64,000 nucleotides of DNA from Neolecta irregularis DAH-3 (lineage: Eukaryota): assembly GCA_001929475.1 (NCBI GenBank), contig LXFE01000157.1:1-64000 (forward strand). Reading direction: 5' to 3'. The first letter of the stretch is position 1; every line of letters begins with the position of its first letter. A model generated the notes under the pieces. The model searched no databases and was not told the origin of the DNA. It was given only the letters and a program-made list of their open reading frames with translations. Position numbers and translations under genes: made by a program. Positions 19,498 through 64,000 of the stretch are shown here, one piece after another.

Positions 19498-22400
19498 TTA
19501 TCTCATCAGTATTGCAATGAGTTTTTTCTTCTCTTTAACACTTATGCCAGAAACAAGAGCATCTAGCCATGTATCTCCACCCGCTTTGCTCCTCATACTC
19601 TCAATTTCTGCCTCGATAGAATCCTGCGAAAGCATGTTGATCATCTTTGCGATTTTGTTACTTATTAGCCATTCAAACACTAAACGATCTCTATTTTCCC
19701 AGTCCGAGCGGGATGTATTCGGGTGACTTTCAACATACCAGGCCTCAATCAAACTTGACGCCCTCTTTCGACTTAGATCCGGTGAAATTACCATTATTTT
19801 CTGAATAAGGACCTCTGTCTCAAGCCGTCGCTTAAGTCTCCAATAAAAGAATCGACGAGCTTCCGGCCAGTTGAGTTCCGCACGAATCGCTCCTTTGGCC
19901 TTCATACGTCCAGAACGATCGTGAAGGTCAGCGAATTGTATGCTTATCTGGGAATATATTGGTAAGAGAACTTTCTCGCGCTCTACAAGTTTAGTTTTTA
20001 TCGACGACTGTTCTTCCGCAGACAGTCCTTTATTTTCGAGCTGAGCTTTTAGTGATTTATATGATTCATCTAGACGGGAAATTGTGTCCAATAGCTTGTC
20101 TCGTCTATACTTTATCCCGACAAGACCTTCTGGTTCAATAACACCGGCCCGAGATTCAAGGTCGGCGTACATTTCCATTTGGTCTTCATTGATAGAAGGA
20201 TCTACCACGACCTGATATATCAGCATTGGACGGTAATCTCATATGGTACCCATGAACCACCTCGCAACTCCGAATTTGGCGGAATGTACACAAATATTGG
20301 TTGTTGATATTTGACAAGCGCATCGACAATGAAGCTGCCATACTTCAGGACTTCATTGAACATATCCCGCTGACCTCCAGAAAACCCACGCCAATTGGCA
20401 AATATAATAAGAGGTAACTGTTCTCCATAATTGAAGTCATTAATAGCCTGAGCAGTCTTGAACGCCGAGTTAGGATACCATACTTGACCGGCCTCCATAA
20501 TGAGTTGTTCCGTGGATTCCGCGTTCGCAGGGTCCGCCGGAATGACATTTTCAATTGATCGAGTCTCGACGGCAATAACACCCATTGGTATTCCTCCGAG
20601 ACGCGCCCGACCAACGACCTACATTTGTCACCTTTAACTGAGATAATTGGAATATACCACCGTCCTTGCCCAACCGTTTAAAGTCTCTCTGAATGAACCT
20701 TTGTCAAAGAACCCTGTCTGAAAGGAATCGTGGGCTTCTTTACCAGCAAGCGCCCATCTAATATCAAATGTCCCTTTCGGAGGGTAATATTCGATACTTC
20801 TATCCCAAGGATCGAGCACAGGAGTTATCGGAAGGGGACCATTGCGTACCGCAGGAACATATGATAGCCATTGGATGATCTTGTGGATGCCCTCAAGGTC
20901 GTTTTCGGCGGTGAGGTGAGAGACACCGTTTTTATGCATGATTTGGGTTCCTCCTAGCTGCAAGTTAGATGAATAAACTTCTCGACCAAGAAGTTTATTG
21001 ATCGCAGGAGCACCCGTCAGTATCTAATAAGTTAATATAATTAGTTACGTGAAAAAATGGTTCTTGCAATTGGTTGTCCTTCAATCTGAATGGCACGTTG
21101 GCCGAGACGAACAAGATAAGCACCAATACCTGGAAATGTTGGATGAATATATGAAGTAAACCATACCAACACTTCGACAAGTGACAAGGGTAATCGTGAA
21201 GATATCTCGGTAAGCCCGACTGGTAGCACCAGCAATCAACCCAGAACCCTTCAAACACTCCACACCCAGTCCATCTTCTTGACCGATGATAGTAACAAGT
21301 TTATATCGCTCCTCGTCGTCATCGACAATTTTTACGCATTGTACGGTTTGGGTTCTGTTTTCGGTGAGTCTCTTGTACACATCTGGGGTAAAATAGAGAT
21401 AGTTGAAGCCTTTGTCTGGTCGCTCCTTATCCTTCCAGGCAACCGAGAAGAGTGGAAGTAGCTCTTCGGCGATACCAAGACGAGCGCCAGAGTTTGCGGA
21501 TAGATAAATTCGTGGAATCCCTCTTGCTTGAGCGAATTCGGTAGCATTGAAAAAGAACTGATCTTCTTGTGGACCGAATGAACCGATCCTGAACGTTATA
21601 TCATTTGCAATGACAACGAATTGTCGACCAGTAGGAAACTCTGGCGTTTTGGTAGTCATTAGCCAGGCAATCATTCCAAAGGTATTCGTCCCGGCTTCAC
21701 GAATAACTTCTTGTAGTTCCCCTTTCTCGTCGAAAACCAATTCTTTGGCATCGAGGATATCATCGGGAATCTTGGCCTTCGCATCCTCACTCATTAGTTG
21801 CTGCCATTCTTTTTTGATGGTCTGTCGAAAGATTTCTGGATAATCATAAGCATACGTAGTTCCCATCAAATGGGCCTTCTTTCTTCGAGGTTGGAGCAAT
21901 TCCTTGGTCGGATAGGGCGCCGTAATTGATCGAAGGTGCATTGATCCGACTGACCCAGTACTTGAGCTAAGACTTTTGAAAATCCATCGCCCCTTATCAG
22001 TCTTGATTTCAGCGTACATGTCAACATTGACAACAAAGCCGGAAACATTGGAAATAAGGACGCGAAGGGGGAATAAATCACCAGTATTTGGGTCTGTGCA
22101 AATGATTCGGATTTCGGCATTTGTAACACGCAACCTCCAGAATCGCTTTCCAAATCGTTCGATGAAACCTCCAAGGGCAGTTTCAACTTGAGAAGGAATG
22201 AGACCAAATGCAGGCGTGAAATTAATGAAAATATGATTCATGTCCGATTGTTCGGTTCCGGCTATCTCAAGAGAATCGAGAATGTCACTGACAAGTCGAT
22301 CAGATTCGGTAATGAGATACTCGGTCGTGGGTATTTCGTCCTTCAACCGACCAGGTCTTACTAAAGCCCGGGTGAAAAATCGTTTATCGGAATCGTTCTC

Positions 22401-25400
22401 TTTTCCAACGGCATAATATGAATGAATGTTGCGATTTCCTGTGAAAACGGGCCTGAAACTAAAATTAGATAACCGAGACAATTCAAGCTGGAAAGCCAAA
22501 GCAGGCTCGATATGTCGGATAGTTTGGTCTTCCACGAATTTAGGCCCTCGAAATGTCAAATAGCTTGGATAACTATCTCCTTTTCGAAGGACGATGAATG
22601 TAATTCTTCGGAGACGACGAGCGTTAAACTCGGGTACCCAGGCATCTACAATATCTTTGGCGGCTCTTAAAAGTTCCGTATCATCACCTTCCCACTGCTG
22701 TACTCCAATGATAAGTACATTGACGAATTCAAGCTTTTCAATCACACTTGTGTCGATTGATTTTCGTAGTTTTCCCACGACAGGTCCTCCAGTTCCAGGT
22801 CCAGGAAATACCTCGAGTGTTCGTTGAAGGTGGTCTTCAACATCGTAAAGATCCTTCACCGGAAGCATTACTCCAGATCGAAGTGGTTCTGAGGTCGAGG
22901 ATTTTGTAAGAACACTCATATCACTGACCGAAGAGATTCTTCCACGAACTGAGTACGGATTAATGAATCCGAAACTATCGAGACAAGGTGTAGAAGGCAC
23001 GGAGGGAGTTCCTGTGCCGACATTCATACCCATACCAATAGGACCCAATTTGTCCGGTCGTAATTGATATTTCCATGATGTCAGGAACGGAGTCTCACCC
23101 TCAGTGTGGTAGCTGACGGCACTAACATGATAAGCACGATAAGCCCTCCGGATGTAGACTTCAAGTGCCGCAAGGGAGAGCCATGGGTCTTCGTGAGCGA
23201 AAAAGAGTGGAAGAACATCAAAAACCGAGTAACGAGAATCGACAAGTTCTTTGATGTCTTCAATGTATGGAGTGCAATGATCGACCCCGGCATCTCCGTA
23301 CCGAGTCCGGACAACTGACCGACGAAGAATGTGTTCCATTTGCATAGCGCGTTCTTCGAGAGACGGTAGAGCACCTTTAATGAGGACTTCGCGAGCTTTA
23401 AGCGAGACTTTTGAAGTTGAACGAGTTTCCAATTCAGTAATACTTTTCAGGATTGATGTGAAATATGTCGAAATATCTGTCGTGGAGGCTTCTTTCTGGA
23501 GTTTGTCGAGGATAGCGAGTACGAGATTATTCCTGGACCCAACTCGAGCATGAGAAAGGGCTAGTGATCAGGAAAATCGCTTGACATAGGGTCCAAACCA
23601 ATCCGAATGACATGATCGACATTCTCCTTGTTTTCGTCTCGCAACATCAGAATCACATCTTCTTCTCGAACGTGCAATTTGGAAAATAAGCGTTCAACGT
23701 TGTAGTACTGCTCTAGCAAATCAACGAACACGCCCCATTCAGATGCCTTAAGCCCATCCTTGAATCTGTTGGCGACATTGGGGAGTGGTTTCAGTAATCC
23801 TTGAAGTAATATGGCTTCAGCTGGATGAAGATGATGTTCCATAAAGGAATCAAAGGCTTTGATGATCTGTCTGGCCGGGAACTCATGACCTCTGGATTGA
23901 GCTTTCTCAACAATAGCGCTTAGATCTTTATCAAGCTTAGCTGGCATTCTGGAGCTGAGAGCAGAATAAGCAGCCTCCCATTCGCCAAACGGAACTTGAG
24001 GATTTTGAAGGACTTGACTGAGACTAGAAAGCGTCGATGCCATGATAACCTGATTATCGAAACCTTCAAGAATATGCTTGAGTATACCAACGAGAACAGC
24101 ACTTTGTTGAGCCGGCTTGTTTCCAACTATCTGGGGAGGCCCAAGGGGAGGCAGTTGACCTACATATGGTTGGGCATGTTTCACTCTCGATGGATCATCG
24201 AGAGTGAGAATTCCAAGAATATCTCCGGCTTGCAGTGAAGCACCAGGTTGTTGAATAAGTTGAACAATACCATCTTCGGAAGCGACGAGAGGCATAATCA
24301 TTTTCATGACCTCGACTTCGGCGTATGGTTGTCCAGCTTTAATGTGTTCATCACTATCAACTAAGAAACGGACGAGCTTTCCAGGAGATGGGGATCGAAG
24401 TTGAGTGGGATCGTTTTCTTGTTCAAGGAGACAAGTCTTTCCGTCTATCGATAAACGCGTGGCTCCGATTTCTTCACGCCAGTAACACGAGTGGCTTTTG
24501 CCGTCCAGAAGAATGAGAAGACTTCCGTCGACAAGAGAACGAACGCCGACGGAACATTTCGATCCATTAATGAAGAGATGATATGATTCCGCAGAACTCT
24601 TAGCACAAGTAAATCGATATCGTTGCCCCTCGTAAATGAAGTCAACAGGAAAGACTGTCTTCAGGATATCCTTGCTCGGGACTTGTCCTTTCTCTAGTGA
24701 TCGTCGATATTCTGCATAACATGCTTCGCTGGCGACATAGGCCTTTGCAATGGCACCACAAATGACTGCTAACATGGGATCTGGGCGTTCGGCAGTGAGT
24801 TTATTCGAGATAAGCATATCGAGCCATCCCGTCGTGATCGTATTTTCTTCAAAATCGGAAGTTTCGAGTAGTTTAATGAGGTACTCGACGGTTGTCTTGA
24901 AGTCCCCTCGAATAGACATTTCTTTCAGAGAGACTACCATATTTTTTCTCGAAACGCTGCGATTTTCACCGTAAGCGAAGACATGACCAAATTGAGAATC
25001 AGACATTTCGTGAATTCCTTGCAAATAAGCAGATACTGCAAATTTTATATACCTCCAGCGCTCGATACACTGAAGTATCCCCAGACATTAGAACTACTTC
25101 GGAAGTTCAATTCTTGCATCATACCACTAGATGGTTTAAATCCTTCACCGGGGTCTTCACTAGTAATTCGACAAGCGGTACAGTGGCCACGCGGGGTAGG
25201 CCTTCTCTGAGTAGTAGAACTAGCTTCGTTGGAGAAGTCGAAATCGATTTCAGTTGTGAGTTTGGGATCGAGGCCGTAAAGGAGCCGAACATCGCGTATT
25301 CTATTGAGACGAAGCCCCATTGCAATCTGAAGTTGAGCCGCAGGAAGATTTACTCCGGTAACCATCTCGGTAGTCGGATGCTCGACTTGTAATCTGGGAT

Positions 25401-26603
25401 TCAACTCGAGGAAAAAGAATTTATCTTCAGCATGACTATAGAGATATTCAACGGTCCCTGCAGAGACATATCCGACAAGCTTTCCCAATCGCACAGCTGC
25501 TTTTTCCATCGCGTGGAATGTCTCAACATTTGCGATCGTTACTGGTGCTTCTTCAATGATCTTCTGGTGACGACGTTGGACTGAACAATCACGGCCGAAG
25601 AGCGAAATGTTGTTTCCATACTGGTCCGCAAGCAATTGAACTTCGAGATGTCGAGCATTACCTGCAAGTTTCATGATGAAGATCGGAGAGCCGGGAACTT
25701 CAGCTTTGACTTGTGCGTACGCAGTCCGGAAAGTCTCCTCTTCCTCCACTTTGCGAATGCCCTTCCCACCACCTCCCTCCGAAGCTTTAATCATAACAGG
25801 AAATCCAATATTCACAGCTCGTTCAAAACCATCTTCCGCGTCATGGGTACATGCTTTTGAGTATGCTTCATCTGCTACACTGACGATGCCCTCGCTATCG
25901 ATTACGACTTCATCGATACCTGTTCCAGACCATGCCATACACGGAACCTTGGCTGATTGGGCAATAATTGTAGACGAGATTTTATCCCCGAGCGACCGCA
26001 TAGCGGATCCTGGGGGTCCAATAAAGACAATTTTATTTTTCGATGCAGCGAGAGAGTCGGGAAGCCTGGGATTTTCTGATGCGTGTCCCCTTTCAAGTCA
26101 GTTTCAGTTGAGAGATTTTAGGTGCACCATCCGGCCCAGACAGCATGTACACCCATTCTCTCAGCTATATCAACGATGAGAGGTACATTAGAGTAGTTCT
26201 ATTAAAACGTAAGTATACATTCATATGTTATGAGAATCATGTACGTTATTGTTACTTCCGCCAGGTACTTCGACATACTGGTCTGCCATTCGGATATATT
26301 CAGCATTTACTTTTAAATCTTCGGGTGTGGCCATGACTGTAAACTTTATAGCTCGCTCGTCGCCAAATGTTTCGTAGGCCCTGAATCCTCAGAATTTGAG
26401 ATTACACCCGGGTATTACCATTTTCGGACACTACGAATTTCTTTTACAGCTGCAATTCCGTTATTTGCGATGAGAATGCTTGATATGACCGTGTGTCCTC
26501 CGGAATTTGCAATGAAGTCTTTTACAGGACTCGAGGCAGCGATTTCAAGTGAATTTCCCCCCAGAAAATGAGATGCAACAGCTGGCCGGGGAGACTGTGA
26601 CAT
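19498..26603 (-). CDS. ACC1: Acetyl-CoA carboxylase, ~10 exons
   Basis: Contains [33 protein letters not shown], the biotinyl motif EVMKM, and the CT-domain motifs NSGAR and [10 protein letters not shown]. Confidence 0.97.
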
Positions 26604-51953: not shown

Positions 51954-52796
51954 TCTAATTCTAGGATATTTCGAAAATGGTGGTGAATTGGGAGGTTCAA
52001 GTGCAGGGACATCCAACCCGACATCCAATTATTTCACATCAATTGAATTCCAGCGTTGCGACAGTCGGTAGGAGACCAGACGAATTTTCAGGATGGTATT
52101 CTAAAGAAGAATGATTCAGTTCGGCTGAGTTTAGTCTGCTTTGTTCAATTTCCAGTCCCTTTTGATGGTTATTCTTCTTGTAATATGTACTTGTAGCTAC
52201 GTACGAGCACAAGCACCTTCAATAGTCGACAAAAACAAAAGCGGGTATAAAGACAATTCCAATGGACTGTTTTAACAGCTTAAATTTGAAGGTTCCTCGG
52301 TATTTTTTGGAAGGCTGCCCGGATAGGTGAACGTCTTTCGCCTTATGTGTCACTATGCTGTATTGCTATGGCGGTGCGTAGAGACCTAGAAACATTTGCT
52401 TACACTCAGATCGCGGTTTTAGTGAGATGAAAAGCCAATATTTCCCGATCCATTTCACAGCGCTTTATCAAGTATGAATCGCTTTTTCACATGGAATTAT
52501 CGTATGATATTATCTCTCTTCATTCAAGCATTTCAATTCATTGTGACATCCTCTTTCTCCCTACCTTACAAATTACAATCACTTTTCATTGACTTGCCTT
52601 GTCTTCAACTTTGATCTTACGCAGAGTAGAGGGTAATGCTTTATATCATGATAATCGCAACACGGTAATAGTTCCGATTCTTCTAATGGAAAATATAATA
52701 TGTATAAATGCATGTTATTACTACGTTCTAGAGATGAGATTATGCCACTTCTAAATACCGGCAAAGAAAATCAATCAACTAACAATCCAAAACACC

Positions 52797-55021
52797 TCAC
52801 CATTCTGCTTTAACCTCACCGGCCCATTCTTTTCTCATTGGCCTATAGATTCGAACTTCACCTGAAATCATATCTCCTAATACAAAAGTTCCCCTAGAAA
52901 CACGTTTGACGCCACCGCTATTCTGCTGAAGCACCTCGATTGTATCACCAACGACCCTCTCAACTATTGCAGTATGATCAGGAGAGCCAGCTGAACATGT
53001 AGAAACAATGCGACCTGTTGAATCGCGAGTTTCAAATTTACAGCTTAGCATTTGAAGGATATCACCTCGGCGAATCTGGTCAATTGAGACTGGTTGCCCA
53101 ACGGATTCGTATATTAGAGCCCCATGCAAAAGACCCTTTGATGACATAGCTGGTGGATGGAGAGTTTCGAGACAATCACGAGCTAATGTCCAACATTCTC
53201 CGTTGCCAACTTGTGTCCCGAACTTCGAATGGCAATATGCGATGATCTGGTCAGCATATAAGTGACTCGATGCAATCAATTCATTTGTTGGCGGCGTAGG
53301 CGGAGAAGGTGCATGTTTTTGCTCGGTAGTCACAGTTCCCATCGGATCGCGTTCATTGTAACTGACTTTGACCCAAGTCAAGGAGAGATTTGGATTTCGC
53401 AGGCAGTAAATTGATGTCCAGATCATGTTCCCTTTCATTCCATGAGCTGAAGACGTGCCAGTATATTCTACGGCTCGGGAAAACGAAGGACATGGCTCTC
53501 TCTTGTGAAACCAGGGCAAGTGGAGATGGAGATCCAAATCAGGATATGAATGCGGGGAGAGGGAAAACATCGATGGTTTCATGAAGGATGGCTTCGTGTG
53601 AAGCGAGATTTGCGGCTTTGAATGCACTGGAATTGGGGGAGGTCCTTTCAATGATGGCGAGGGCATCGAAACAGGTGCCTGCGACTGAAGACCGTCTCTG
53701 CCGGTGATGTATAGGCGAAGCTGTTCCACCTCTCGGCTGCCAGTGTACTTGTCGCAGCCGTCCTTGCCGACCCACTAGCACTTAGCTGATAGATTTCGAG
53801 AAACACCTACATATATCGTTGGATAGCCACTAGTGGGGTATATCTTTTTGACTTGTTCATGTTCTGCCCCATCTATCTGATAAAATCTAACATGAGGCAA
53901 AGTCGCCGCTAATTCATTGTATGCCGGAAAAAACTCCTAGAAATCAGTGAGAGCCAACTTGACATATATACCTTGCAATACCTACACCAAGGAGCATAGA
54001 TAAGCAACATATATGGTGGCTAGGGTTTAGCATTCTCGCTGGATTATCATACGGAGGGCAGGTTCACTTCGTGTAGTTCAGTTGGGCAACCAGTCGATGC
54101 TTGAACTGATATCGAAGATGGACGTGGAGATAAACCCGATTTGTAGAGTTGTGGAGGACCAGACGCCTTTTCAACTGCTGGAGCTAGAATTCGATTTACC
54201 TTGGGCAATGAAACATTGAATATTTTTGGAGCTGTTCTGCTTATGTCATGATTATTTGAAGCCGAAAGTTGGCTTGCAGCTGTGTACTGATCAGCTCGAT
54301 TTGGGTCTGGTCTCTCCTCGATGCTAGAAGAGGGGGTCATGTTTCCAGTAGTCGACTTTAGAGATTTCTCACCGGTTCCAGAAAATCGGTTGACTAATCG
54401 GAGGCTGTTTTTCAGGTCACTCAAATTTATCTTATCATCTGGCTTCGCTGAAGAGTTGCCATTTTGACTGACTGTGCGATTCAGCATTTTATATCCGCTT
54501 TTTAATTCTTCCTTATTCGTCTCCTGAAGTTTTGCTTTTATTTCGTGAAGGTCGCTGGTTGAAATTGATGTTCCTGGTATCGGTCTGGCCCGAGGAGGCA
54601 ATGACGGTTTCGGAGGCGGAACCTTTATCCCAGACATCGAAAAGGCACTGGACGATCTCGATGATGAAGGTCGAGGGTTTGAGCCTGGTCTGAGTTCCGG
54701 TACAACATACCCGATTCGTTTTGGGAGGGGAGGGGTTTTTTGCATCGTTTCATTGCCTGACACATCGAGTTCTCGTACGCCTAGTTTCTTAGATAGTGAT
54801 TGATGATCATACTTGGGATTACCGTCTTGCTTAAATAGATGAGATGAGGGCACGCTTTTGACGGGTGATCTTCGACCGGCAGTATACGATGAATTCGAGT
54901 GCTTTTCAAGCCACTCCTTATCACTTTTCTTTGGCTCTGACCGAGTTACTTTGTCCATTCCGGTCCGTGCTTTGAATGCGGCATAATCTGCTTTCTCTTT
55001 GATTAATTTCAGGGCCTCCAT
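52797..55021 (-). CDS. AIM3/BBC1-like Pro-rich protein with an internal thioredoxin (WCRYC) domain and a C-terminal cysteine-protease-like fold, 4 exons
   Basis: Three GT-AG introns join the Pro/Ser-rich ORF to IYAPWCRYCK-EFFPAYNELA..QIDG..SGYPTI..YTGSREVEQL and then to QVGNGECWTLA..GDILQ..PDHTAIV..LQQN. Confidence 0.8.
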
Positions 55022-56098
55022 GAACACCTGAATCAATGAAAATAATCGCGGTGATTATGACAGATGGCTACAAGGTGGCACGTGAATAAGACCAATAATA
55101 TTATAATGTAACATGACTCTGTCCCGCTTTTTAATGTCGGAAGCAAGATTGGCATATCTACAAGAATGCCTTGATGTGACTGGGAGTAGATTCAAGCGAC
55201 AAAGCCTGTAGTTGTTGCAATTTTTGACGATCTCCATCGAATAGTTAAAATTTCCTTTTTAACCCTTCTCAGAGATTTCATGCACCAGTCATACTGGCAC
55301 CTCAATCCAATTATCGAAGATAAATACTGTTTATTTCTGCTGACTGAGTCTATTTCCTGGTCTTTGATACCTTTGCGCCCATTTTAGACTCTTAGGGATT
55401 ACCAGGAGATAGGTTAAATGTTCTAAATCTTGTACAACAATCTAGCTCTAGTGCGGGTTGAAATTGCTGATCGAAAGCGTCATTGCTTGCAAAAGGAGAT
55501 CAAGGGCAAATGTAAGCAAATGAACCATTTCTGAAGATATAGAAAATCGAATCTGGAAAGTAGAACAATCTGAGATTGTTGGGATCACTGGAGAGGAGTA
55601 CACCAGGATCGTGTGCAAAGCTTCCAGCAATGAACTATAAATTCAAGATTATTTGAGAGGCGCGATGGTCCATTTACTATATGACAAATATGTGGTGTTA
55701 TGCCAAACTCAAAGAATCCTTGCAACTTGAGATAAAGGATGCCATAAAGAGACACAGGACTGTTGATAAAATGGACGATAATCTCTTATAATCGGACTGA
55801 TTCTTCGAATCATATCAAGAAGCTCAGACGGAAATGTTATCGTTAAAGTTGACACGATTTCAAAAACCTAGCACATTGGAAAGAGGGCTCAAGTTGAAGT
55901 TTATTCCGGATGAGCGTTATCCAACCTTACCCTTGGGCTTTATTATCTGAAAGGAGAGTTTATAAGAAGCCAAATCTATAAGCTTCAAGATCTCTCAGCA
56001 AGAAATGGGGCGGTATAGTGTATTTGGATATATTGGTGATGACGAAGACCATGGCGAAATCTCGGTTGGCAGATGTGCCCTGTCGAGTCAACTTCACC

Positions 56099-59000
56099 AT
56101 GAGTATCCCAGAAAGCAGTAGTAGCAACAAATCACCACCAATATCCCCTCTTTCGATTTCTCCCGTGTGTCCTGTAGCTACGAAAGAACAAACACGTCCG
56201 CCATCGGCGTCGTCGTCATCTGCGAACACATTTACATCCGCACTGTATTCTTTTCCCAACTATTCATCATCCACCCTTGCTCCCTCAAAAAGGCCCCGTA
56301 ATTCAGGTGCCTCTGAATCATCTGAAGGAAGAGGGCGAGGCCCAATGCCCGATGCCGTGGAACAGGCTAGCCGTGAAACTTCGTTGGAGTCGTCAGTAGT
56401 CGATGCGAAAAGGTGGACCATCCATGATGATGATGTTTCTACTCCGCCGCTCGAGGACACGGCATCACCAGAGGTTCCCGCACCTCTTCCTCGCGAACAA
56501 CTTGAGATTATTGATAACCTAAAGGTCGAAAAGCTCATTGCTGGTAGATCAATGTATGTGATCTCAACGCACTGGTACACTCAATTCCGGAATTGGAGTC
56601 ATGGAGAATTTCGAGAATTGAATCCTATTGATAATTCAATGATTATAGATAGCGCAGGGGAGTTGTTTCCTAGAATGAATGAAGGAAACGACTATCTTTT
56701 AATCCCTGACCTTGCTTGGAAGATGTTAATACAGTGGTATGGCATACTGACGAAACACTACAAAGCCTAACATTTAGGCATGGTTCCAACGGTCCCGAAT
56801 GCTCGCGCCCAACAATCAACACCGCTGAGCCGCCTGGTGAAAATCTTCTTGTGGAAATGCATCCACTTCAAGTTCGTCTATTTACCGTCACGGATCAGTC
56901 CCAATCCTCGTTTCCGCTGACAGGAGCCAATGGACAGGTGATTGACGAACTGCGGTCAGTATTCGGCAAGACTAGTAGAAAGCAATCTTTACCTCCCTTA
57001 CTTGTTCGACCTGTCCTCTCAATAAGTCGTGCAGAGTTGTGGTCGACCTTTCGTACACAGATTGTCGAATTATTAGGACTTGAGCCCCAATGCGCAATGA
57101 GGCTTCACAAGATCGGTAACTTGAACCAAATACAAGCAGTCAGCCTCGAGGCCTCGACACTCGCTAAGCTTCCCGACCGATACGATCTAGTCACGCTAGA
57201 TTCCAGTAGTATCGACTCTAAAATGATTAACCATGATCTATCTACAAATGCAGACTTGGCTGTTGAAATACAATCTATCGATTTCACCTGGCCTGTGGAT
57301 GATTACAAAGAGCTTCCGATTCCTTTAGAACTATGGGATGAAAGTGATTCCAAGGTCGATTCTGGCAGTAGCTGGAATTTTCCCTATACTAAACCGATTT
57401 CTTTTCCATCTTCCCATACTCCTATCAACGACTCGAGCACCAAAGATATTGAAGAACCGAAGCTTCAGAATACAGCCATGTACTGTCTAAAGGGCGAAAC
57501 CGGACTGCAGAATCTCGGAAATACATGCTATATGAACTCTGCCCTCCAGTGTTTATCGCATGTTGAGGAATTAACGAAATATTTTCTATGTATGTGCAAA
57601 ATGTTTTTAAAACTTATTATCTAGCGGATGCATATACAGAAGAAATCAACACTGACAATCCTTTAGGAAGCGGTGGGTTAGTTGTGAGAAGCTACGCCAT
57701 CCTTATTCACAAATTATTTGAGAATCCACCGGAAAGTTCGTACGCTCCACGGGGTTTCAAATCGACCATTGGTAGATTCGCTCCCGCGTTTTCGGGCTAC
57801 CAGCAGCAAGACGCTCAAGAATTCCTCGCTTTTCTTCTTGATGGGCTTCACGAAGATCTCAATCGAGTCCTAAAGAAGCCTTATACAGAGAAACCAGATT
57901 TGGGAGAGTTTAGCGATCAGAAAATTCGAGAATTAGCGTTGAGATGTTGGGATACTCACAAACTAAGAAATGATTCGGTCATTGTAGATTTAATACAAGG
58001 GCTTTATAAGAGTACGCTTGTTTGCCCTGAGTGTAATAAAGTAAGAACACTATTAGTGAACATTGTTGAAAGTTTTAGGTTTCGGTCAGCTTTGACCCCT
58101 ACATGGTGCCATATATCCTCTAACCATTGTCTAAGCTTTCAGGATTTGACATTACCTTTGCCAATTATAAAGAAATGGAAGCATGAAATTAAATTTGTTC
58201 CCTGGGATGTTTCGACACCCGTATTCAAGGCATGGTATCAATATTCCAGCCTCTGCTCAACGAATAGATAAAAGTTGTGCTGGACAAGAACAGTACGATT
58301 CGAACAATGAAGGAATTTATTGCAGATCGTCTCAAGCTTGATCCCAAGAAAGTATCGTTTCTCCTTTTTCATTCATCTGAATGCTAGCTATGGTCAGCAG
58401 AAGTGTGGAAACAAACGTTCTATAAACATCACTATGATAGCGAAACTACGTCTGACGTCATCAGTGAGCACGACAACATCTTTGTTTACGAATTACCAAT
58501 ATCCACGGAGTCAACTTCTGAAACACTTGCCAGTTCCGATGAGCAGTACCTCGTACCAATTGTCACATCTCGCGATTGCCCATCGAAAGCATCATGGTCT
58601 TCCATAGAAACTACCTGCTATCCATTTTTCATTGCTCTTTCACACAGAGAAGCCTCAAGTTATGATACCATTTACAACAAAATTAGGGACAAATATCATC
58701 AATTCACAACCGCTCCACAATTATTATATGTGGATGAATCAAAACCGAGTTCCCCTGAATCGAATTCCGATATAGACCAAGACTATATCGATGTGAAGAT
58801 GGATGAAAATCCCGAGGGATCGATAGTAGAAATCAAGAAAGCGCCTCCTCTTCCGAAAAGACCTAGTCCTGCGCCTCCGCCACCCGTTAAACTAAAGCTG
58901 ATACCTCGCTCTACCCATCGAGACCCGTTTCCAACCACGCTTGGTAATCCTTCGAACTTGAGCGAAATCAAAGATATGTTTACTTGTGAAAGTCCTCCTC

Positions 59001-60376
59001 GAGATGTAAATATGGAAGAATATGTCGATACAACAGGCGGAATTACTGGTCCGTTTACACCTCCAGACGACTTACTAGAGCCTTCGTATCATTTTGGTTC
59101 GGAACAATCGATTCTTCTCAAAACTTCAGTGACCTCGTCGAACAATTATTTTGAAGATCCATCGCCTCGCTATAGCGATAGTGAAGACCCCCAGATGAAA
59201 GATGCGAGTGAAGAGGAAGATGTACTCCATCGACCATGTGTAATCGATCATCTACCTCCGTTTGGGCCACCAGATTCTCTCGAAAACAGCCGTAGCAATT
59301 CACGGTCTGGAGTACCTTGGTCCTCGCCAAATTCTGATGTTTTGAGCAGTGAAATCCTGGTACATGCGAGTGACGGTATCCTTTGCGAGTGGGCGGTGCC
59401 AGTGTACGACAGCATATTTCCCGCTGTTGAGACGGAGGTTGGAGGAATTAAAGTACGTGGTTTATGGGACGAGTCTACTTTCTTTCACGATGAAAACCTC
59501 GAAGCGGAAGAAGAAGCTGCGAAGAAAGCCAAACACAGAGAAGTCAATCTGGCAGACTGTCTCGACGAATTCTCAAAAACGGAAGAATTGGGAGAAGAAG
59601 ATACGTGGTATTGTCCCAATTGTAGAGAACACCGACGAGCCACAAAGACTTTTGAACTTTGGAATGTGGCTGATATTGTTGTGATGCATTTAAAACGATT
59701 TTCCAGTGCACGCGCATTGAACGATAAAATCGATGATCTTATCGAGTTTCCGTTACAAGGATTAAATTTGAACGAACGAATTGGATCGTGGAAGTCAAAC
59801 ACAGATCCAAATAAAGAGGATTTTATTTACGATTGTTTTGCTGTTGCTAATCATATGGGCGGAACAGGTGGCGGTCATTATACGGCGTATGCGCGAAATT
59901 TCAAGGGAGACAAATGGTTCTCGTATAACGATTCTTTTGTGAAACATATGGATTCAGCTAGAGTAGTCTCGCCATCTGCTTATTTAATCTTTTATCGACG
60001 CAGAAAAGCAACGGGACAATTCGCCGGTGGTGAAAAATACACACAGATGCTAAATGACTTTGAAATCAAGAATTCAAAGCCTAGGGAAGTGTCGTCTGGT
60101 CTTGTTAAACCTATTATTACTTCAGCTGGTGTTCGTTTTGGAAATGATTCATCTGCAAGTTCAGATAGTACCAAAATCTCACCTGTAAAAGTCATTGAAC
60201 GGTTCCCGGGACCAGGAAGAACGTTGGGAGAAACTTTACCACAGGAAAAGATAAAACCGCTTTGGACACAGACGACGCCCACGCCGACGACAACTACAAA
60301 CGACGAAGATGAGGGGTATGAAGCTGAATGCGAAAAAGATGATGCCAGGATGAACGATGAGATTGAAGAGGGCTGA
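56099..60376 (+). CDS. UBP12: Ubiquitin C-terminal hydrolase, USP4/11/15 (Ubp12) family, start uncertain
   Basis: DUSP domain ([21 protein letters not shown]), Cys box [33 protein letters not shown] and His box [14 protein letters not shown]. Confidence 0.92.
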
Positions 60377-60603
60377 ACTTCCAAGCCTTGATTTCCATGT
60401 AATATTTTGTACGCATTTATTATTTCCTAAAGCGAGCCTACTCTCTAAATCTCTGTAAGCGGATATCGAGGATGTAATCCTCTTCTGTTTGTGTTCTTCG
60501 GGTATAGTTGAACAAAACCATATAAAACATGAATGAAAAGAAACCACAGAAATCCATTATACCACCCCTTGAGTTGCCTAGGATGACCCGGCTAGGGCAC
60601 ATA

Positions 60604-61073
60604 CTAAAATCCAGCTGGCGCAGCCCTTGTTCCCACGGTAACTCGGGTCCATTTGGGCACTACAAATCTTAAACCCGTCCTTGTCTCAAAAGGAAAGGAA
60701 GAAAAATACCTTTATGCGCGCCCTTTCTAAACATGACGCCGTTCTTGGTGAATACAGTATACTTATCCTTGGCCAAAAGTTTATTTTCAGGAATAATAGT
60801 ATTCTTGACATATTCCAACGCTTTACAAGTTTGTCCTTGCAAAATCAACTAGATATTTCTCAAGATAAAAGAAACCTGTTTGGGAGAGGGAGGAGTCTAG
60901 CGTAGCGATTACTTTGTCGATATGTTGTAATCGCTTACGTTGTCTGTATTTCCGTGGACTCGATAACCGCCACGGCGATTTCCTTTGGGAAAAGATTAGT
61001 GGGGAATAGATAATAATGAATACCATAGTAAACCTCCTTGAGCGATAAACGATGCGCGAAAGGCGCCAAACAT
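60604..61073 (-). CDS. MRPL31: Mitochondrial ribosomal protein mL60/YmL31, 4 exons
   Basis: Spliced protein reads MFGAFRAS..GGLLWKSPWRLSSPRKYRQRKRL..KDKYTVF..RKGAHKVPKWTRVT..PAGF. Confidence 0.92.
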
Positions 61074-61200
61074 GAATGAACAAGGTCAAGTGGGAAGAGG
61101 TGACGTCTGATACTGGCAAATTTGATCCCACGTGTGAGTGGGTATTTTAAGCGATATAGAATACTGTAAAAGATACAAAAATGGCGAAATTGTATATAAT

Positions 61201-63807
61201 CTACAGTTCACCATCAAACTTTTGTGCACGAGGAGATTTGCTATTACGCTCAGGGTCTGATGATGGAATAAAGACTTTTGCTTTTAGTACTTTGTCGTCG
61301 ACATTTTTAGGTAAGATATCAGCAGCTGGCGCTTTGTCAATAAAGTCGCTGGCTTTTTCGTAAACTTGATCAGTTTTATCTTTGAGATCTTGGACGATAT
61401 GTTGAGCGAAATGTGTTGTTTCATCGACCTTTTGGTCAAATCCGCTGATCGCGTGTTCAACGAAACCAGGTTCGGTTGCTGCTGAGGATCGACTTTCAGC
61501 GATAGGACCGAGTGCAGCCGAGCTAATCTTTTCGCGAATTTGTTCTCCTTTTGATTGGACGGCTTCGGTGGCAGCGTTGGCTTGAGATTTTATCTGTTTG
61601 CTGGCGTCTTGCGCATATTCCGAAACCAGAGGCAACACGTTTTCTTTTGCGAATTCCGCTTTTTCAAAAGCAGCTTGTCCCCCTTGGCCAGAATTCTGAC
61701 CCGTTTCAGCAGCCGCAGGGACCACATTTTCCTTGATATATTCGATTCCCTCTTGGTATGCCGCTTGACCTGCTTGTCCAGCTGCATTAGCAGCAGACTG
61801 GATGAAATCAGCAGCAGAACCAATATATTTTTCATATATCTCTTCCGGACCAAAGGTTTCTTGGACACCGTAAATTGCTTGACTGGCTTTGGAAACAGCG
61901 ACCCCGGGAGCAGCCTTGATATTCTCGTAAACAGATTCAGTGAACGACATGTAATCTAGATCCAATCAGCAATAAAACACAAAACATATACTTTGAGGAA
62001 AGTCATTCTTGGTATCTTTTGTGCGGATTTTCTTGGCGCCTACAAATTGTACCATTTCAATTTTCTTAAAAGCCAGGGAAGAAATTTCATCGATTTGATC
62101 TTGTACATTTATTGGAATTTCTTCAAGGTTCGAATGAGCTGGTTTAGTCTGAAGTTCAAGGAACTCTACGAATTCTTTTTGGCGAGAATGGAGGTCTGTG
62201 CGAAGGGCATGGTATTTAGCCCAGTCCTAAAACAGTCAGTGGGTTAAAAAGAAGGGGAGGGGCCTTGTAAGTTACGTAATCGAGATATGGCCACTCTCTG
62301 CCGATTTCCTCTTGCAGATTGATACGTATTTCGTCGAGCTGTTTGGTTACAGCGTGAATGTCATTAGAGATTCGTTGATGGAGGTGAGGAAAGATATTAT
62401 TGGAGTATTCACTTGTAATCAGCGTGCAAAGATGTAAGAGTGTACCTGATTTGGATAGTTTTATCTTTGATGGATGCAATTGCATCAAGGGATAGGCTGT
62501 CGAGCTGTTGCAGACGATGGTCCAAGTTTGTGTCCATGGCAGCTAACACAAGGATCTTTTTCTCGATGCTAGAGATTGTTGTATTGCACAATTCCTGTAA
62601 TTGATGGAGATAATCATTGCACACACGACTTTCTTTTCGTTCTGCAGCTTGAAGGATATCGGTTATTTCCGCGACTAGTTTATCTTCAGCGGTGGTTGTA
62701 GCTTTTGCGAGGACGGAGGCGGCAGTATTGATTGTTGAGTCTATGTGTTTGCGCTCTGCTTCTTTTTTAGCTTGGGTAGCAAGGGATTCAGAGTGGTCAG
62801 CAAGGGGGTCGAAGTGGTCAGCAAGAGGTTCAGAGCGGTCAGCAAGAGGTTCAGAGTGGTCAGCAAGGGGGTCAGAGTATTGAGCAAATGATTCAGAGTG
62901 TTGAGCAAAGGATTCATTTTCGGCTCTAGGGTGAGCATGTACGACGCAAAAACAAACCCATTGTTCACATTCTGCGAAAGCTGTCTGTCAGCTCTAAACT
63001 GGAAAACGCGATCATGAATTTTGTCCAGTTGGGGTTGTACATGCTGGTTCCAGAGCAGTCGCAGCTGCACAAACACGAGGGAATGGAGTTTTTCTCGACA
63101 AAAGGCAAGAGCTGTGGATATTTTTGGGTGCGCGTGGGCGAGGTATGTGTTTTTGGAGGCGACGGCAGCGGAACAGAGGCGCGGGGCGATGTGGTTGTAT
63201 GCGGGGACGAGGCGGACCCTGTAGACGGATGCGAGGCGGGCGGAGGAGCGGACGGCGAGAGGGGCCAAGCTGTGGCTGTAGAAGCGGTGTGCATGGGCGA
63301 CGTGGGCCTGGAGGTGTTTGGCGTAGAGCGTGCTGCAGGGGAGGACGAGGTGCCTGTCGAGGACGGGCTGGACTGCAGTGCGGTAGTCCTTGAGGGCCTG
63401 TTTCTGGGCGCGGAGGACGAGCGGGTGGACGCGGGCCCAGTAGGTGCTGTGGGCCGAGGCCGCGAGGGGCGCGTAGTGCCTGTGGGCAAAGTGGGCGCAG
63501 GGGCGCAGGCGATCGACGTAGCGGGCGGCGTATGCGTCGTAGAGGGGCAGCAGGCGGGGCCGCAGCAGGGCGTGCGAGTGGTCGAGGGCCCTGCACACGA
63601 GGGGCGCGGCTGGACCGGCAGGCCGCGCAGGGCACACCACAAGGGCGTGGTAGGCCGCATAGAGGGCAAACAGGCTGCGGTCAGGGCGGAGGCACGCGGG
63701 CAGGGGTGCATATACTTGAGGAGGAAGCGCAGCAGCGGGCGGCGCCGGCGGGCGGGGCGGGGGGCGGCGTCGGCGGGTGGCCTGCGGGGACGGGGCTTCT
63801 TGGCCAT
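61201..63807 (-). CDS. SHE10-like membrane-anchored coiled-coil protein
   Basis: Basic N-terminus, a TM segment, VCP..P.VC, a helical Y/H-rich region, coiled coils and an Ala-rich amphipathic tail; several introns. Confidence 0.6.
62783..62910 (-). repeat. 21-bp coding tandem repeat, ~6 copies, encoding A(D/Q)HS(E/D)PL
   Basis: Consecutive CAGAGTGGTCAGCAAGRGGKT-type units. Confidence 0.9.
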
Positions 63808-63811
63808 GGGC

Positions 63812-64000
63812 AGATGGAGGAGGGAGGTGGGAGGTGATGGATTGATGGAGGTGATGGATTGATGGAGGTGATGGATGGATGGATGGAGGATGAAGTGGAT
63901 GGAGGATGGAGGATGGAGGATGGAGGATGGAGGATGGAGGATGGAGGACAAAGTGTGGAGGATGGAGGTTGGAGATGGATGAAGTGGAGGAGGCAGATGG
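63812..64000. repeat. Purine-rich (GGAGGAT)n/(GGAT)n microsatellite upstream of the SHE10-like gene
   Basis: At least 6 perfect GGAGGAT units around 63902-63945 within a G/A-rich tract that runs off the window end. Confidence 0.93.

What the first reader, a model, noticed from the sequence alone, without database searches (positions are those of the whole stretch)
52797..55021. Hidden thioredoxin (WCRYC) domain fused between a Pro-rich AIM3-like region and a Cys-His protease-like fold
Seen: the ORF track misses two small exons. With three canonical GT-AG introns the 329-aa Pro/Ser-rich ORF continues in frame into PPYMLLIYAPWCRYCK (WCRYC at 53989-53975), EFFPAYNELAATLPHVRFYQIDGAEHEQVKKIYPTSGYPTIY and WVGKDGCDKYTGSREVEQLRLYI, then a C-terminal domain with QVGNGECWTLA...PDHTAIV...LQQN. 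Established: YAPWCxxC, the cis-Pro GYPT and Y.G.R define a PDI-type thioredoxin domain, and the GECW/H domain ends fungal Bbc1/Aim3-like actin-patch proteins. Inference: no signal peptide is evident, so this would be a cytosolic CxxC redox module with an atypical RY spacer linked to a putative catalytic Cys. It could be a redox-gated protease/acyltransferase or a cytoskeletal regulator. I know of no described protein with this architecture.
Basis: partly seen in the sequence, partly recalled or inferred. Interest (0 to 1): 0.8.

Follow-up and report, generated by a model that had tools for sequence, protein, structure and literature searches.

The report
Thioredoxin insert in Neolecta actin-patch protein
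A gene of the fungus Neolecta irregularis appears to encode an actin-patch-type protein (AIM3/BBC1 family) that has picked up a redox-active thioredoxin module in front of its conserved cysteine-enzyme-like end, a rare combination that hints the family's unexplained catalytic cysteine is redox-controlled, but the transcript has not been seen.

Summary
On the minus strand, four exons (55021-54053, 54019-53972, 53936-53811, 53774-52797) joined by three phase-0 GT-AG introns of 33, 35 and 36 nt give one 706-aa reading frame. Other genes in this window have introns of the same size. The window is Neolecta irregularis: its ACC fragment is 99% identical to that species' protein.

The C-terminal 170 aa are a clear AIM3_BBC1_C domain (Pfam 3.8e-45). 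This domain folds as CHAP/NlpC-P60 and keeps the invariant Cys and His. Exons 2 and 3 each hit the Thioredoxin profile, and the two hits abut exactly at the splice junction. Their closest solved relatives are PDI-family domains.

Of 182 family members scanned, only one carries thioredoxin-fold domains: an unnamed 735-aa protein whose two copies lack CxxC. None of 80 metagenome loci has such an insert.

Three things remain open. No RNA evidence could be obtained. The spliced protein could not be folded or profiled whole. Exon 1 shows no detectable homology to the family.

Verdict: a probable lineage-specific domain insertion, which makes this a new variant of a known family. The redox-gating mechanism is inference only. 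Interest is moderate.

The parts
54053..55021 (-). Exon 1: ATG at 55021, 323 codons. Ser/Pro-rich and probably disordered, with three PxxP motifs.
   Evidence: This is a 335-codon stop-to-stop ORF whose codon usage favours this frame. It has no Pfam family at E <= 1 and no similarity to the family's N-termini.
54020..54052 (-). Intron 1: 33 nt, GT-AG, phase 0, containing in-frame stops.
   Evidence: The in-frame TGA at 54049-54047 would end the exon-1 ORF if the intron were retained.
53972..54019 (-). Exon 2: 16 codons, covering a beta-strand and the active site W-C-R-Y-C-K. The Cys codons are 53986-53984 and 53977-53975.
   Evidence: The Pfam Thioredoxin hit is 14.9 bits at profile positions 22-44. 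PDB sequence hits are TXNDC5, PDIA4 and PDI (E 4e-11 to 2e-4).
53937..53971 (-). Intron 2: 35 nt, GT-AG, phase 0, with a CTGAT branch-like motif.
   Evidence: Removing it makes the Thioredoxin profile continuous, position 34 then 35.
53811..53936 (-). Exon 3: 42 codons, the middle of the thioredoxin fold, ending in the GYPT cis-Pro loop.
   Evidence: The Pfam Thioredoxin hit is 18.9 bits, E 0.0016, at profile positions 37-77 of 103. It aligns with PDIA4 and PDI a-type domains over 40 residues.
53775..53810 (-). Intron 3: 36 nt, GT-AG, phase 0. Its AG is part of an in-frame TAG.
52797..53774 (-). Exon 4: 325 codons plus the stop at 52799-52797. It holds the last ~23 residues of the thioredoxin fold (including Y-T-G-S-R), a Pro/Ser-rich linker of ~54 aa, and the conserved C-terminal region.
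   Evidence: This is one uninterrupted ORF. Pfam results are and the alignment with relatives.
52815..53324 (-). AIM3_BBC1_C domain (exon-4 residues 151-320) with a CHAP/NlpC-P60 fold. The catalytic-type Cys codon is 53195-53193, the His codon is 52976-52974, and the Q-N pair lies in L-Q-Q-N.
   Evidence: PF25459 scores 154.3 bits, E 3.8e-45. Cys and His are invariant in 87 of 87 aligned sequences. The model has pLDDT 95.8. Foldseek's best hit is 5d74_A at 1.9e-5. VIA-align gives Z 11.6 to 6ist_C and Z 11.2 to 5d74_A.

Best explanation
This is one nuclear gene of Neolecta irregularis. It encodes a 706-aa cytosolic protein of the AIM3/BBC1 family.

The layout has four parts:
- a disordered Ser/Pro-rich N-terminal half with PxxP motifs;
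- an inserted PDI-type thioredoxin fold of about 80 aa, with active site W-C-R-Y-C-K;
- a flexible Pro/Ser linker of about 54 aa;
- the family's conserved C-terminal CHAP/NlpC-P60-like domain with its invariant Cys and His.

In relatives, the stretch where the thioredoxin module sits is a Lys-flanked polyproline tract. The insert is therefore lineage-specific, or at most shared within a small Taphrinomycotina-like clade.

Likely mechanism (inferred, not shown): the PxxP region brings the protein to SH3 proteins of endocytic actin patches, as in yeast Aim3/Abp1. The tethered CxxC then acts in cis on the oxidation-prone nucleophilic Cys of the CHAP-like domain. It could either keep that Cys reduced or lock it in a mixed disulfide, so that the still unknown thiol-dependent activity follows the local redox state.

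Shown: the reading frame, the domain identities, the fold of the C-terminal domain, and the rarity of the architecture. Inferred: that the introns are spliced as drawn, that exon 1 belongs to the same mRNA, that the thioredoxin module is redox-active, and what it acts on.
For: Gene model:
- Three phase-0 GT-AG introns of 33-36 nt give a 706-codon frame.
- Introns of 30-45 nt join Pfam-supported ORFs elsewhere in the window.
- The stop of the exon-1 ORF lies only 37 nt before the first ATG of exon 2, whereas the flanking intergenic gaps are about 0.8-1 kb. Two separate genes are therefore unlikely.

Thioredoxin module:
- Two independent partial Pfam hits of 14.9 and 18.9 bits are collinear and abut at the splice junction.
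- The best solved-structure matches of both pieces are PDI-family a-type domains.
- The W-C-x-x-C-K, GYPT and Y-x-G-x-R motifs can be read directly in the sequence.

C-terminal domain:
- PF25459 scores 3.8e-45.
- Cys and His are invariant in 87 of 87 sequences.
- The model has pLDDT 95.8.
- It matches CHAP endolysins at Z 11.6-11.2 and E. coli glutathionylspermidine amidase at Z about 7. One of those amidase entries (3a2z) is titled as the Cys59 sulfenic acid form.

Cytosolic location: no hydrophobic segment.

Insertion point: in a MAFFT alignment with 10 relatives, the thioredoxin stretch fills a gap opposite their polyproline tract. The flanking motifs P-P-I-P-x-x-S-K-P and D-L-D-L-x-L-x-x-x-W-F align.

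A functional link between the two folds: a second family member, P0112, has two thioredoxin-fold domains collinear with this one. It falls in the same clade as Neolecta and Saitoella (support 91/92). Its domains look like cytosolic Trx or the Grx3-type Trx-like domain rather than PDI, which would fit a second, independent recruitment.

Family context: Aim3 acts with Abp1 to inhibit barbed-end actin assembly, and Bbc1 is a negative regulator at actin patches (passages read in PMC5896931).
Against: - No transcript evidence was obtained.
- No protein containing this C-terminal domain from Neolecta appeared in three searches, although the species' ACC protein is in the collection. The best match anywhere is 45% identical (P0049). 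The deposited annotation, which the genome paper says is 99.4% RNA-supported, may therefore lack this gene.
- Each thioredoxin piece alone scores below Pfam's 23.5-bit cut-off. The first 40 residues of exon 4 gave no hit on their own.
- The whole spliced domain could not be profiled or folded here.
- The N-terminal beta-alpha unit of full-length thioredoxins is not recognisable at the end of exon 1, so at most the minimal fold is present.
- The residue six places before the first Cys is Leu. Thioredoxin and PDI have a buried acid there (recalled knowledge, not tested here).
- Codon usage in exons 2+3 is only marginally coding-like (0.013 per codon).
- Exon 1 has no detectable homology to the family.
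- The closest named relative, Saitoella, lacks the insert.
- P0112 has lost the CxxC, which shows that a thioredoxin fold in this family need not be redox-active.
- There is no second Neolecta sequence, so purifying selection on the insert cannot be measured.
Confidence: 0.55

Rival explanations
1. The gene model is right, but the thioredoxin fold is a redox-inert structural or binding module. It would act as a folded spacer or a docking surface, as in degenerate Trx-like domains, and the CxxC would be incidental or a leftover from the donor gene.
For: The only other family member with thioredoxin-fold domains, P0112, has no C-x-x-C anywhere. Its domain 1 aligns with the Grx3/TXNL2-type Trx-like domain, where only the second Cys remains. 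The position six residues before the first Cys is Leu rather than the buried acid of thioredoxin and PDI (recalled knowledge). The R-Y dipeptide inside the CxxC is not one of the canonical pairs (recalled knowledge).
Against: Both Cys residues, the preceding Trp, the following Lys, the cis-Pro loop and the Y-x-G-x-R arginine are all kept. These are the residues a decaying module would be expected to lose first. The exon-2 piece matches active-site segments of PDIs at E down to 3e-5 for single-domain alignments.
Confidence: 0.2
2. The thioredoxin module is active, but its client is not the protein's own C-terminal Cys. It would instead be brought by the PxxP region to actin patches, where it reduces oxidised cysteines of actin or of actin regulators.
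For: Family members act at endocytic actin patches (passages in PMC5896931; passage in PMC12422587). The protein is cytosolic. The module replaces a polyproline tract in the middle of the recruiting region rather than abutting the catalytic domain.
Against: No evidence obtained here ties the module to actin. The co-occurrence seen twice is specifically with the AIM3_BBC1_C domain. Exon 1 could not be shown to be homologous to the patch-targeting regions of Aim3 or Bbc1.
Confidence: 0.15
3. The model is wrong. Exons 2-3 are not part of the mature mRNA: they are skipped, or they lie in a decayed remnant of a captured PDI gene fragment. Alternatively, exon 1 is a separate gene, and the real protein starts at the Met in exon 2 or the Met at exon-4 residue 37.
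For: Exons 2 and 3 are symmetric (48 and 126 nt, phase 0-0), so skipping them keeps the frame. Their codon usage is weak. No protein for this gene was found in the collections although the species is represented. Exact look-ups of two simple ORF models also found nothing.
Against: The exon-4 ORF opens exactly at the intron-3 acceptor and begins with the in-register last thioredoxin segment. All active-site and fold motifs are intact, with no frameshift or stop inside the three coding pieces. A single intron removing the whole module would be more than 300 nt in a window where the inferred introns are 30-45 nt. A 37-nt gap between two genes is implausible here.
Confidence: 0.15

Closest known systems
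AIM3/BBC1 family of fungal actin-patch proteins (Pfam PF25459 AIM3_BBC1_C). Closest named member: Saitoella complicata GAO52032.1 (P0049).
   Same: The C-terminal ~250 aa are the same, including the D-L-D-L-x-L-x-x-x-W-F lead-in, the G-N-G-E-C-W and P-D-H-T motifs, and a long low-complexity Pro-rich N-terminal half. P0049 is 45% identical over residues 43-325 of exon 4.
   Different: None of the named members has a thioredoxin fold: 181 of 182 scanned lack it. There is no SH3 domain and no PF17096 AIM3 match in exon 1. The polyproline tract that relatives carry at this position is replaced by the insert.
P0112, an unnamed 735-aa protein from a Logan contig.
   Same: It is the only other family member found with thioredoxin-fold domains ahead of AIM3_BBC1_C (Pfam Thioredoxin 3.5e-13). 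Its second domain is collinear with the Neolecta insert. It falls in the same clade as Neolecta and Saitoella.
   Different: It has two domains instead of one. Neither has a CxxC. Their closest solved relatives are cytosolic thioredoxins and Grx3/TXNL2 Trx-like domains, not PDIs. It is only 32% identical in the C-terminal region.
Catalytic a-type domains of protein disulfide isomerases (PDIA4, TXNDC5, PDI, PDIA3, PDIA6, Mpd1).
   Same: These are the best solved-structure sequence matches of exons 2 and 3. They share the Y-A-P-W-C-x-x-C-K segment and the S-G-Y-P-T loop.
   Different: This protein has no signal peptide and ends in ...K-A-E-W, with no ER-retention tetrapeptide. It has a single domain, R-Y instead of G-H between the cysteines, and an N-terminal beta-alpha unit that is not recognisable. 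It is embedded in a cytosolic protein.
CHAP-domain amidases: phage endolysins LysIME-EF1, Ly7917, PlyGRCS and LysK, and the amidase domain of E. coli glutathionylspermidine synthetase/amidase.
   Same: The fold and the placement of the Cys and His match: Z 11.6 with 119 aligned residues at rmsd 3.7 (6ist_C), Z 11.2 with 114 aligned at rmsd 2.7 and 25% identity (5d74_A), and Z 7.0-7.3 for Gsp amidase entries. One Gsp amidase entry shows the nucleophilic Cys as a sulfenic acid (title of 3a2z).
   Different: Sequence identity is 10-25%. The Pfam CHAP hit is weak (E 0.0074). The protein is eukaryotic and cytosolic, has an extra beta-rich lead-in (model residues ~20-93) that went unmatched, and its substrate is unknown.

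Membership tests
AIM3_BBC1_C (PF25459) | Profile match above Pfam's gathering score | tested here: met
   The match scores 154.3 bits against a cut-off of 27, E 3.8e-45, covering profile positions 1-178 of 180.
AIM3_BBC1_C (PF25459) | Conserved Cys and His of the cysteine-proteinase fold | tested here: met
   Cys125 and His198 of the 256-aa query are invariant in 87 of 87 aligned sequences. Q215 and N216 are at least 90% conserved. The motifs G-N-G-E-C-W, P-D-H-T and L-Q-Q-N are present.
AIM3_BBC1_C (PF25459) | Papain-like CHAP/NlpC-P60 fold | tested here: met
   The AF2 model has pLDDT 95.8 and pTM 0.89. Foldseek's top four hits are Ly7917 chains at E 1.9e-5 to 8.7e-5. VIA-align gives Z 11.6-9 to CHAP and NlpC/P60 enzymes over model residues ~94-248.
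Thioredoxin (PF00085), PDI a-type subgroup | Profile match above Pfam's gathering score (23.5 bits) over the whole domain | tested here: inconclusive
   Only unspliced pieces could be submitted. Exon 3 scores 18.9 bits (profile 37-77) and the exon-2 ORF 14.9 bits (profile 22-44). The two are collinear and abutting. The first 40 residues of exon 4 gave no hit alone. The spliced protein was not scanned.
Thioredoxin (PF00085), PDI a-type subgroup | W-C-x-x-C active site at the N-terminus of helix 1, followed by Lys | tested here: met
   W-C-R-Y-C-K occupies spliced residues 334-339. It aligns with W-C-G-H-C-K of TXNDC5 and PDIA4.
Thioredoxin (PF00085), PDI a-type subgroup | cis-Pro loop before strand 3 | tested here: met
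   G-Y-P-T at residue 376 aligns with S-G-Y-P-T of PDIA4.
Thioredoxin (PF00085), PDI a-type subgroup | Complete thioredoxin fold in three dimensions | not testable with these tools
Protein disulfide isomerase (ER enzyme) | Signal peptide and C-terminal ER-retention motif | tested here: not met
   The first 30 residues have mean hydropathy -0.65 and the best 19-residue window scores 0.59. The protein ends in ...K-A-E-W.
Bbc1 (SH3-bearing) and Aim3 (PF17096) N-terminal regions | SH3 domain or PF17096 match in the N-terminal half | tested here: not met
   Exon 1 has 0 Pfam families at E <= 1. hhalign against the 87-sequence family alignment gives probability 0.6%. BLASTP and phmmer against 183 members give nothing below E 0.75. 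For comparison, PF17096 is found in 20 of 182 relatives.

The most novel reading that the evidence does not exclude
Thioredoxin-fold modules were recruited at least twice into AIM3/BBC1 proteins: a PDI-type module with CxxC in Neolecta, and a cytosolic-Trx/Grx3-type module without CxxC in the organism of P0112. These would be independent 'Rosetta stone' fusions. They would indicate that the family's invariant Cys-His domain is a redox-regulated thiol enzyme at endocytic actin patches, and that a free thioredoxin or glutaredoxin serves it in other fungi.
Probability: 0.2. Interest if true: 0.65.

Novelty: new variant of a known kind. Interest (0 to 1): 0.45.

Why it matters
Fungi widely carry the AIM3/BBC1 C-terminal domain, and it keeps an invariant Cys-His pair. 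Even so, my searches of the held paper library found no study of its activity; the work on Aim3 and Bbc1 that I read concerns their proline-rich and SH3-mediated roles in actin assembly. A natural fusion to a CxxC thioredoxin, plus a second thioredoxin-fold fusion in a related lineage, gives a concrete and testable hypothesis: the Cys is a working nucleophile whose state is set by thiol-disulfide exchange. The fusion would also be an example of a PDI-type module, normally lumenal, reused in a cytosolic protein. Because the insert is bounded by and interrupted with tiny phase-0 introns, it would also illustrate exon-level domain insertion in an intron-dense, compact fungal genome. The finding rests on one genome and has no transcript evidence, so its weight is limited for now.

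Tried and rejected
- **RNA evidence.** The look-up of sequencing runs with kind rna listed no RNA holder for 52700-55150.
- **Own genome.** None is held, so the donor of the thioredoxin module and any paralogues could not be sought.
- **Reading through intron 3.** A by-reference read-through, meant to score exon 3 plus the start of exon 4 together, was rejected by the Pfam tool because of the stop codon. I dropped that reference.
- **Earlier findings of this scan.** Nothing on this genome, these words or this sequence.
- **ESM Atlas.** P0112 gave no usable hit. Exon 4 gave only PF25459 or CHAP clusters, none with a thioredoxin family listed.
- **Exact look-ups.** Two simple ORF models (exon 1 to its stop, and exon 4 from Met37) are not in the collection.
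- **Exon 1 against the family.** BLASTP against two members, hhalign against 87, and BLASTP and phmmer against 183 all gave nothing significant.
- **Metagenome scan.** It gave 80 loci. None is more than 40% identical over a long match (one short segment reaches 50% and two 27-29-residue segments reach 59%), and none covers exon-4 residues 1-38. A regex for an aromatic residue followed by C-x-x-C, run on up to 2 kb upstream of the match, hit 5 of the 80 loci (61 of them have at least 600 nt upstream). By eye, none of the hits resembles a thioredoxin active site, and four of the six lie beside stop codons.
- **Intron-like pattern as a window-wide signal.** It is not enriched over shuffles (23 against a mean of 37, and 65 against 91.5), so it has weight only because of where the matches fall.
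- **A PDI-like coincidence.** The intron-2 read-through frame resembles a PDI helix (a W and an L in register with TXNDC5). I judged this to be chance, because that frame stops after 20 residues.
- **Papers.** The Neolecta genome paper's main text has no passage on introns, gene models or thioredoxin, and I did not look at its supplementary methods. PMC6771142, on S. pombe Bbc1, is not held.
Full report
**What is in the sequence.**
The finding lies on the minus strand. An ATG at 55021 opens a 323-codon stretch that runs to a GTATGA donor at 54052. Three short GT-AG introns follow: 54052-54020 (33 nt), 53971-53937 (35 nt) and 53810-53775 (36 nt). They separate two small exons, 54019-53972 (16 codons) and 53936-53811 (42 codons), from a last exon at 53774-52797 (325 codons plus stop). 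A script that cut these intervals out of the window confirmed three things:
- all three introns are phase 0;
- each has a CTRAN motif a few bases before its AG;
- the joined frame is 2121 nt, that is 706 codons and one terminal stop.

The only correction is that exon 1 encodes 323 aa rather than 329.

**Are such tiny introns credible here?**
Yes. The window holds several housekeeping genes whose Pfam-supported ORFs are broken by short frame changes. In acetyl-CoA carboxylase the two junctions I read are closed by GT-AG introns of 38 and 35 nt. A systematic look at adjacent ORF pairs gave best candidates of 30-45 nt throughout.

The intron-like pattern by itself is not enriched in the window: 23 strict matches against a mean of 37 in shuffles. 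Its weight comes from position. Two strict matches and one looser match fall exactly where the frame needs them. Removing intron 2 also makes the Pfam Thioredoxin alignment continuous: the exon-2 ORF aligns from residue 4 at profile position 22, so residue 16 falls at position 34, and exon 3 aligns from residue 3 at position 37, so residue 1 falls at position 35.

**Whose genome.**
An 828-aa ORF of the carboxylase is 99% identical to the acetyl-CoA carboxylase of Neolecta irregularis DAH-3, and the next hits are at 58%. The genome paper gives 14.5 Mb, 44% GC, 5,546 genes, and DNA and RNA sequenced from fruiting bodies (passages read in PMC5309816). The window has 42-49% GC. No whole genome is held for the window.

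**The C-terminal domain.**
Exon 4 matches AIM3_BBC1_C (PF25459) at 154.3 bits, E 3.8e-45, and weakly matches CHAP. I aligned the last 256 residues with 86 relatives. One Cys and one His are invariant, and a Q-N pair is nearly so. In window coordinates the Cys codon is 53195-53193 and the His codon is 52976-52974.

AlphaFold2 on this alignment gave pLDDT 95.8 and pTM 0.89. Foldseek's four matches below E 0.001 are chains of the CHAP endolysin Ly7917. VIA-align 2 gave the following over model residues ~94-248:
- Z 11.6 (119 aligned residues, rmsd 3.7) to LysIME-EF1;
- Z 11.2 (114 aligned, rmsd 2.7, 25% identity) to Ly7917;
- a long series of CHAP and NlpC/P60 enzymes;
- Z 7.0-7.3 to the amidase domain of E. 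coli glutathionylspermidine synthetase/amidase.

The 'Cys-His protease-like fold' is therefore confirmed. The beta-rich lead-in (model residues ~20-93) was not matched.

**The thioredoxin module.**
- Exon 3 alone hits Pfam Thioredoxin at 18.9 bits, E 0.0016, profile positions 37-77 of 103.
- The ORF that contains exon 2 hits at 14.9 bits, profile positions 22-44.
- Each piece is below the 23.5-bit cut-off, and the first 40 residues of exon 4 gave nothing alone.
- Against solved structures, the exon-2 piece finds TXNDC5 (4e-11 summed over three domains), PDIA4 (3.3e-5), PDI, PDIA3, PDIA6 and Mpd1. Exon 3 finds PDIA4 and PDI a-type domains over 40 residues, weakly, with E 0.05-1.2.
- The sequence shows W-C-R-Y-C-K, the G-Y-P-T loop and Y-T-G-S-R.
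- The exon-4 ORF opens exactly at the intron-3 acceptor and carries the last thioredoxin segment in the same uninterrupted frame as the AIM3_BBC1_C domain.

The fusion of these two parts therefore does not depend on any splice. What could not be done is a profile scan or a fold of the whole spliced domain, because the tools take only unspliced references. At the end of exon 1 I could not recognise the extra N-terminal beta-alpha unit of full-length thioredoxins, so the module corresponds at most to the minimal fold. From recalled knowledge, the residue six positions before the first Cys is an acid in thioredoxin and PDI; here it is Leu.

**Is exon 1 part of the same gene?**
The evidence is structural only.
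- The exon-1 ORF would stop 37 nt before the first ATG of exon 2, whereas the neighbouring intergenic gaps are about 0.8-1 kb.
- A 335-codon open frame on the same strand is very unlikely to be non-coding, and its codon usage fits.
- All full-length relatives have a long proline-rich N-terminal half.

Against this, exon 1 has no Pfam hit at E <= 1 and no detectable similarity to relatives by BLASTP, phmmer or hhalign. It is 'AIM3-like' only in composition: 9.9% Pro, 15.5% Ser and three PxxP motifs. The protein has no signal peptide or membrane segment.

**How rare is the architecture?**
- Two word-indexed searches with exon 4 found 34 longer and 14 similar-length relatives. All carry PF25459, none carries a precomputed thioredoxin family, and the best identity is 46%.
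- A full HMMER pass over 1.84 billion representatives found 836 hits at E <= 0.001. Of the 150 listed, the best is 45% identical, and no alignment reaches the first eight residues of exon 4.
- None of the 181 proteins has an aromatic residue followed by C-x-x-C.
- Pfam scans of 182 proteins (87 + 76 + 19) found PF25459 in all of them, PF17096 in 20, CHAP in 26, and Thioredoxin in exactly one, P0112.
- In 80 metagenome loci, no thioredoxin-like active site lies upstream of the domain.
- Atlas clusters near exon 4 list only PF25459 or CHAP.

The closest named relative is Saitoella complicata GAO52032.1. In a MAFFT alignment, it and nine others show a gap opposite the thioredoxin stretch, where they have a Lys-flanked polyproline tract. 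The motifs just downstream align well.

**The second case.**
P0112 is an unnamed 735-aa protein from a Logan contig. It has a Thioredoxin hit at 3.5e-13 over residues 110-207, a weaker second domain around residues 281-362, and then AIM3_BBC1_C. The two domains are paralogous (BLASTP 3e-8). The second is collinear with the Neolecta insert.

In a maximum-likelihood tree of the C-terminal 262 residues of 35 sequences, Neolecta, P0112, the two Saitoella proteins and the fragment P0057 form one clade with support 91/92. P0112 sits on a long branch, so its place is unsure.

P0112 has no C-x-x-C. Its closest solved relatives are cytosolic thioredoxins and the Trx-like domain of Grx3/TXNL2, whereas the Neolecta pieces look like PDI. 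That difference fits two independent recruitments better than one. With such short pieces, however, I cannot exclude a single old insertion followed by divergence and by loss in Saitoella.

**How it most likely works.**
The following are shown: a cytosolic protein that joins a CxxC thioredoxin fold through a ~54-aa Pro/Ser linker (20% Pro, 20% Ser) to a CHAP-like domain whose Cys and His are invariant across the family.

The rest is inferred. The N-terminal PxxP region would recruit the protein to SH3 proteins of actin patches. This follows from Aim3 acting with Abp1, and from Bbc1, in the passages I read in PMC5896931 and PMC12422587. The tethered CxxC would then exchange electrons with the nucleophilic Cys, either rescuing it after oxidation or holding it in a disulfide. 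CHAP nucleophiles do get oxidised: the PDB entry 3a2z is titled as the Cys59 sulfenic acid form of Gsp amidase.

My probabilities:
- about 0.8 that the thioredoxin coding pieces are genuine coding sequence joined to the C-terminal domain;
- about 0.7 that exon 1 is in the same mRNA;
- about 0.5 that the module is redox-active;
- about 0.25 that its client is the protein's own Cys.

**Caveats.**
- No RNA run could be listed.
- No Neolecta protein for this gene surfaced in the collections although the species is represented. The deposited, RNA-supported annotation may therefore lack the gene, either because gene prediction missed the micro-exons or because expression in fruiting bodies is low.
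- The supplementary methods of the genome paper were not looked at and may bear on this.
- Searches of the held paper library for the Pfam accession, the family name and 'Bbc1' with 'CHAP domain' found nothing relevant. The library does not cover most subscription journals.

**Verdict.**
This is a new domain-architecture variant of a known family in a poorly sampled lineage. It is of moderate interest, mainly as a lead to the function of the AIM3/BBC1 Cys-His domain.

Noticed in passing
window 19498-26097 (-): This is the acetyl-CoA carboxylase gene, split by very short GT-AG introns (35 nt at 25052-25018, 38 nt at 23598-23561, and a candidate of 38 nt at 20249-20212). One 828-aa ORF is 99% identical to the Neolecta irregularis DAH-3 protein, which identifies the genome.
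   Followed up: partly
window 54781-54822 (-): A 42-nt intron-like segment lies inside exon 1 (GTA...CTAAG...CTAG). It is in frame, and splicing it would remove 14 residues from the disordered region. The frame is open either way, so only RNA can decide whether it is used.
   Followed up: no
window 55982-60376 (+): The divergent upstream neighbour is a ubiquitin-specific protease (DUSP domain plus a UCH domain split over three further ORFs). Candidate introns of 41 and 35 nt lie at 56737-56777 and 57590-57624. About 960 nt separate it from the ATG of the gene studied.
   Followed up: partly
P0048; Atlas clusters: AIM3_BBC1_C is not purely fungal. A 435-aa bacterial-looking protein, and Atlas clusters labelled Bacteria (Pseudomonadota), carry the same G-N-G-E-C-W and D-H-T motifs. 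A bacterial CHAP-like origin of the fungal domain therefore seems possible.
   Followed up: no
window 53937-53971 (-), read in the exon-2 frame: Read-through of intron 2 gives a peptide whose W and L fall in register with the helix after the active site of TXNDC5. That frame stops 20 residues later. I judged this a coincidence.
   Followed up: partly
window 60001-64000: The last 4 kb has higher GC (0.486) and a strong GC skew (0.22) compared with the rest of the window. Several overlapping long ORFs lie on both strands at 62409-64000.
   Followed up: no
P0148 (Rutstroemia sp., PQE16037.1): This 700-aa AIM3_BBC1_C family member is named 'gmp synthase protein' by its source. The name is probably an annotation error.
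   Followed up: no
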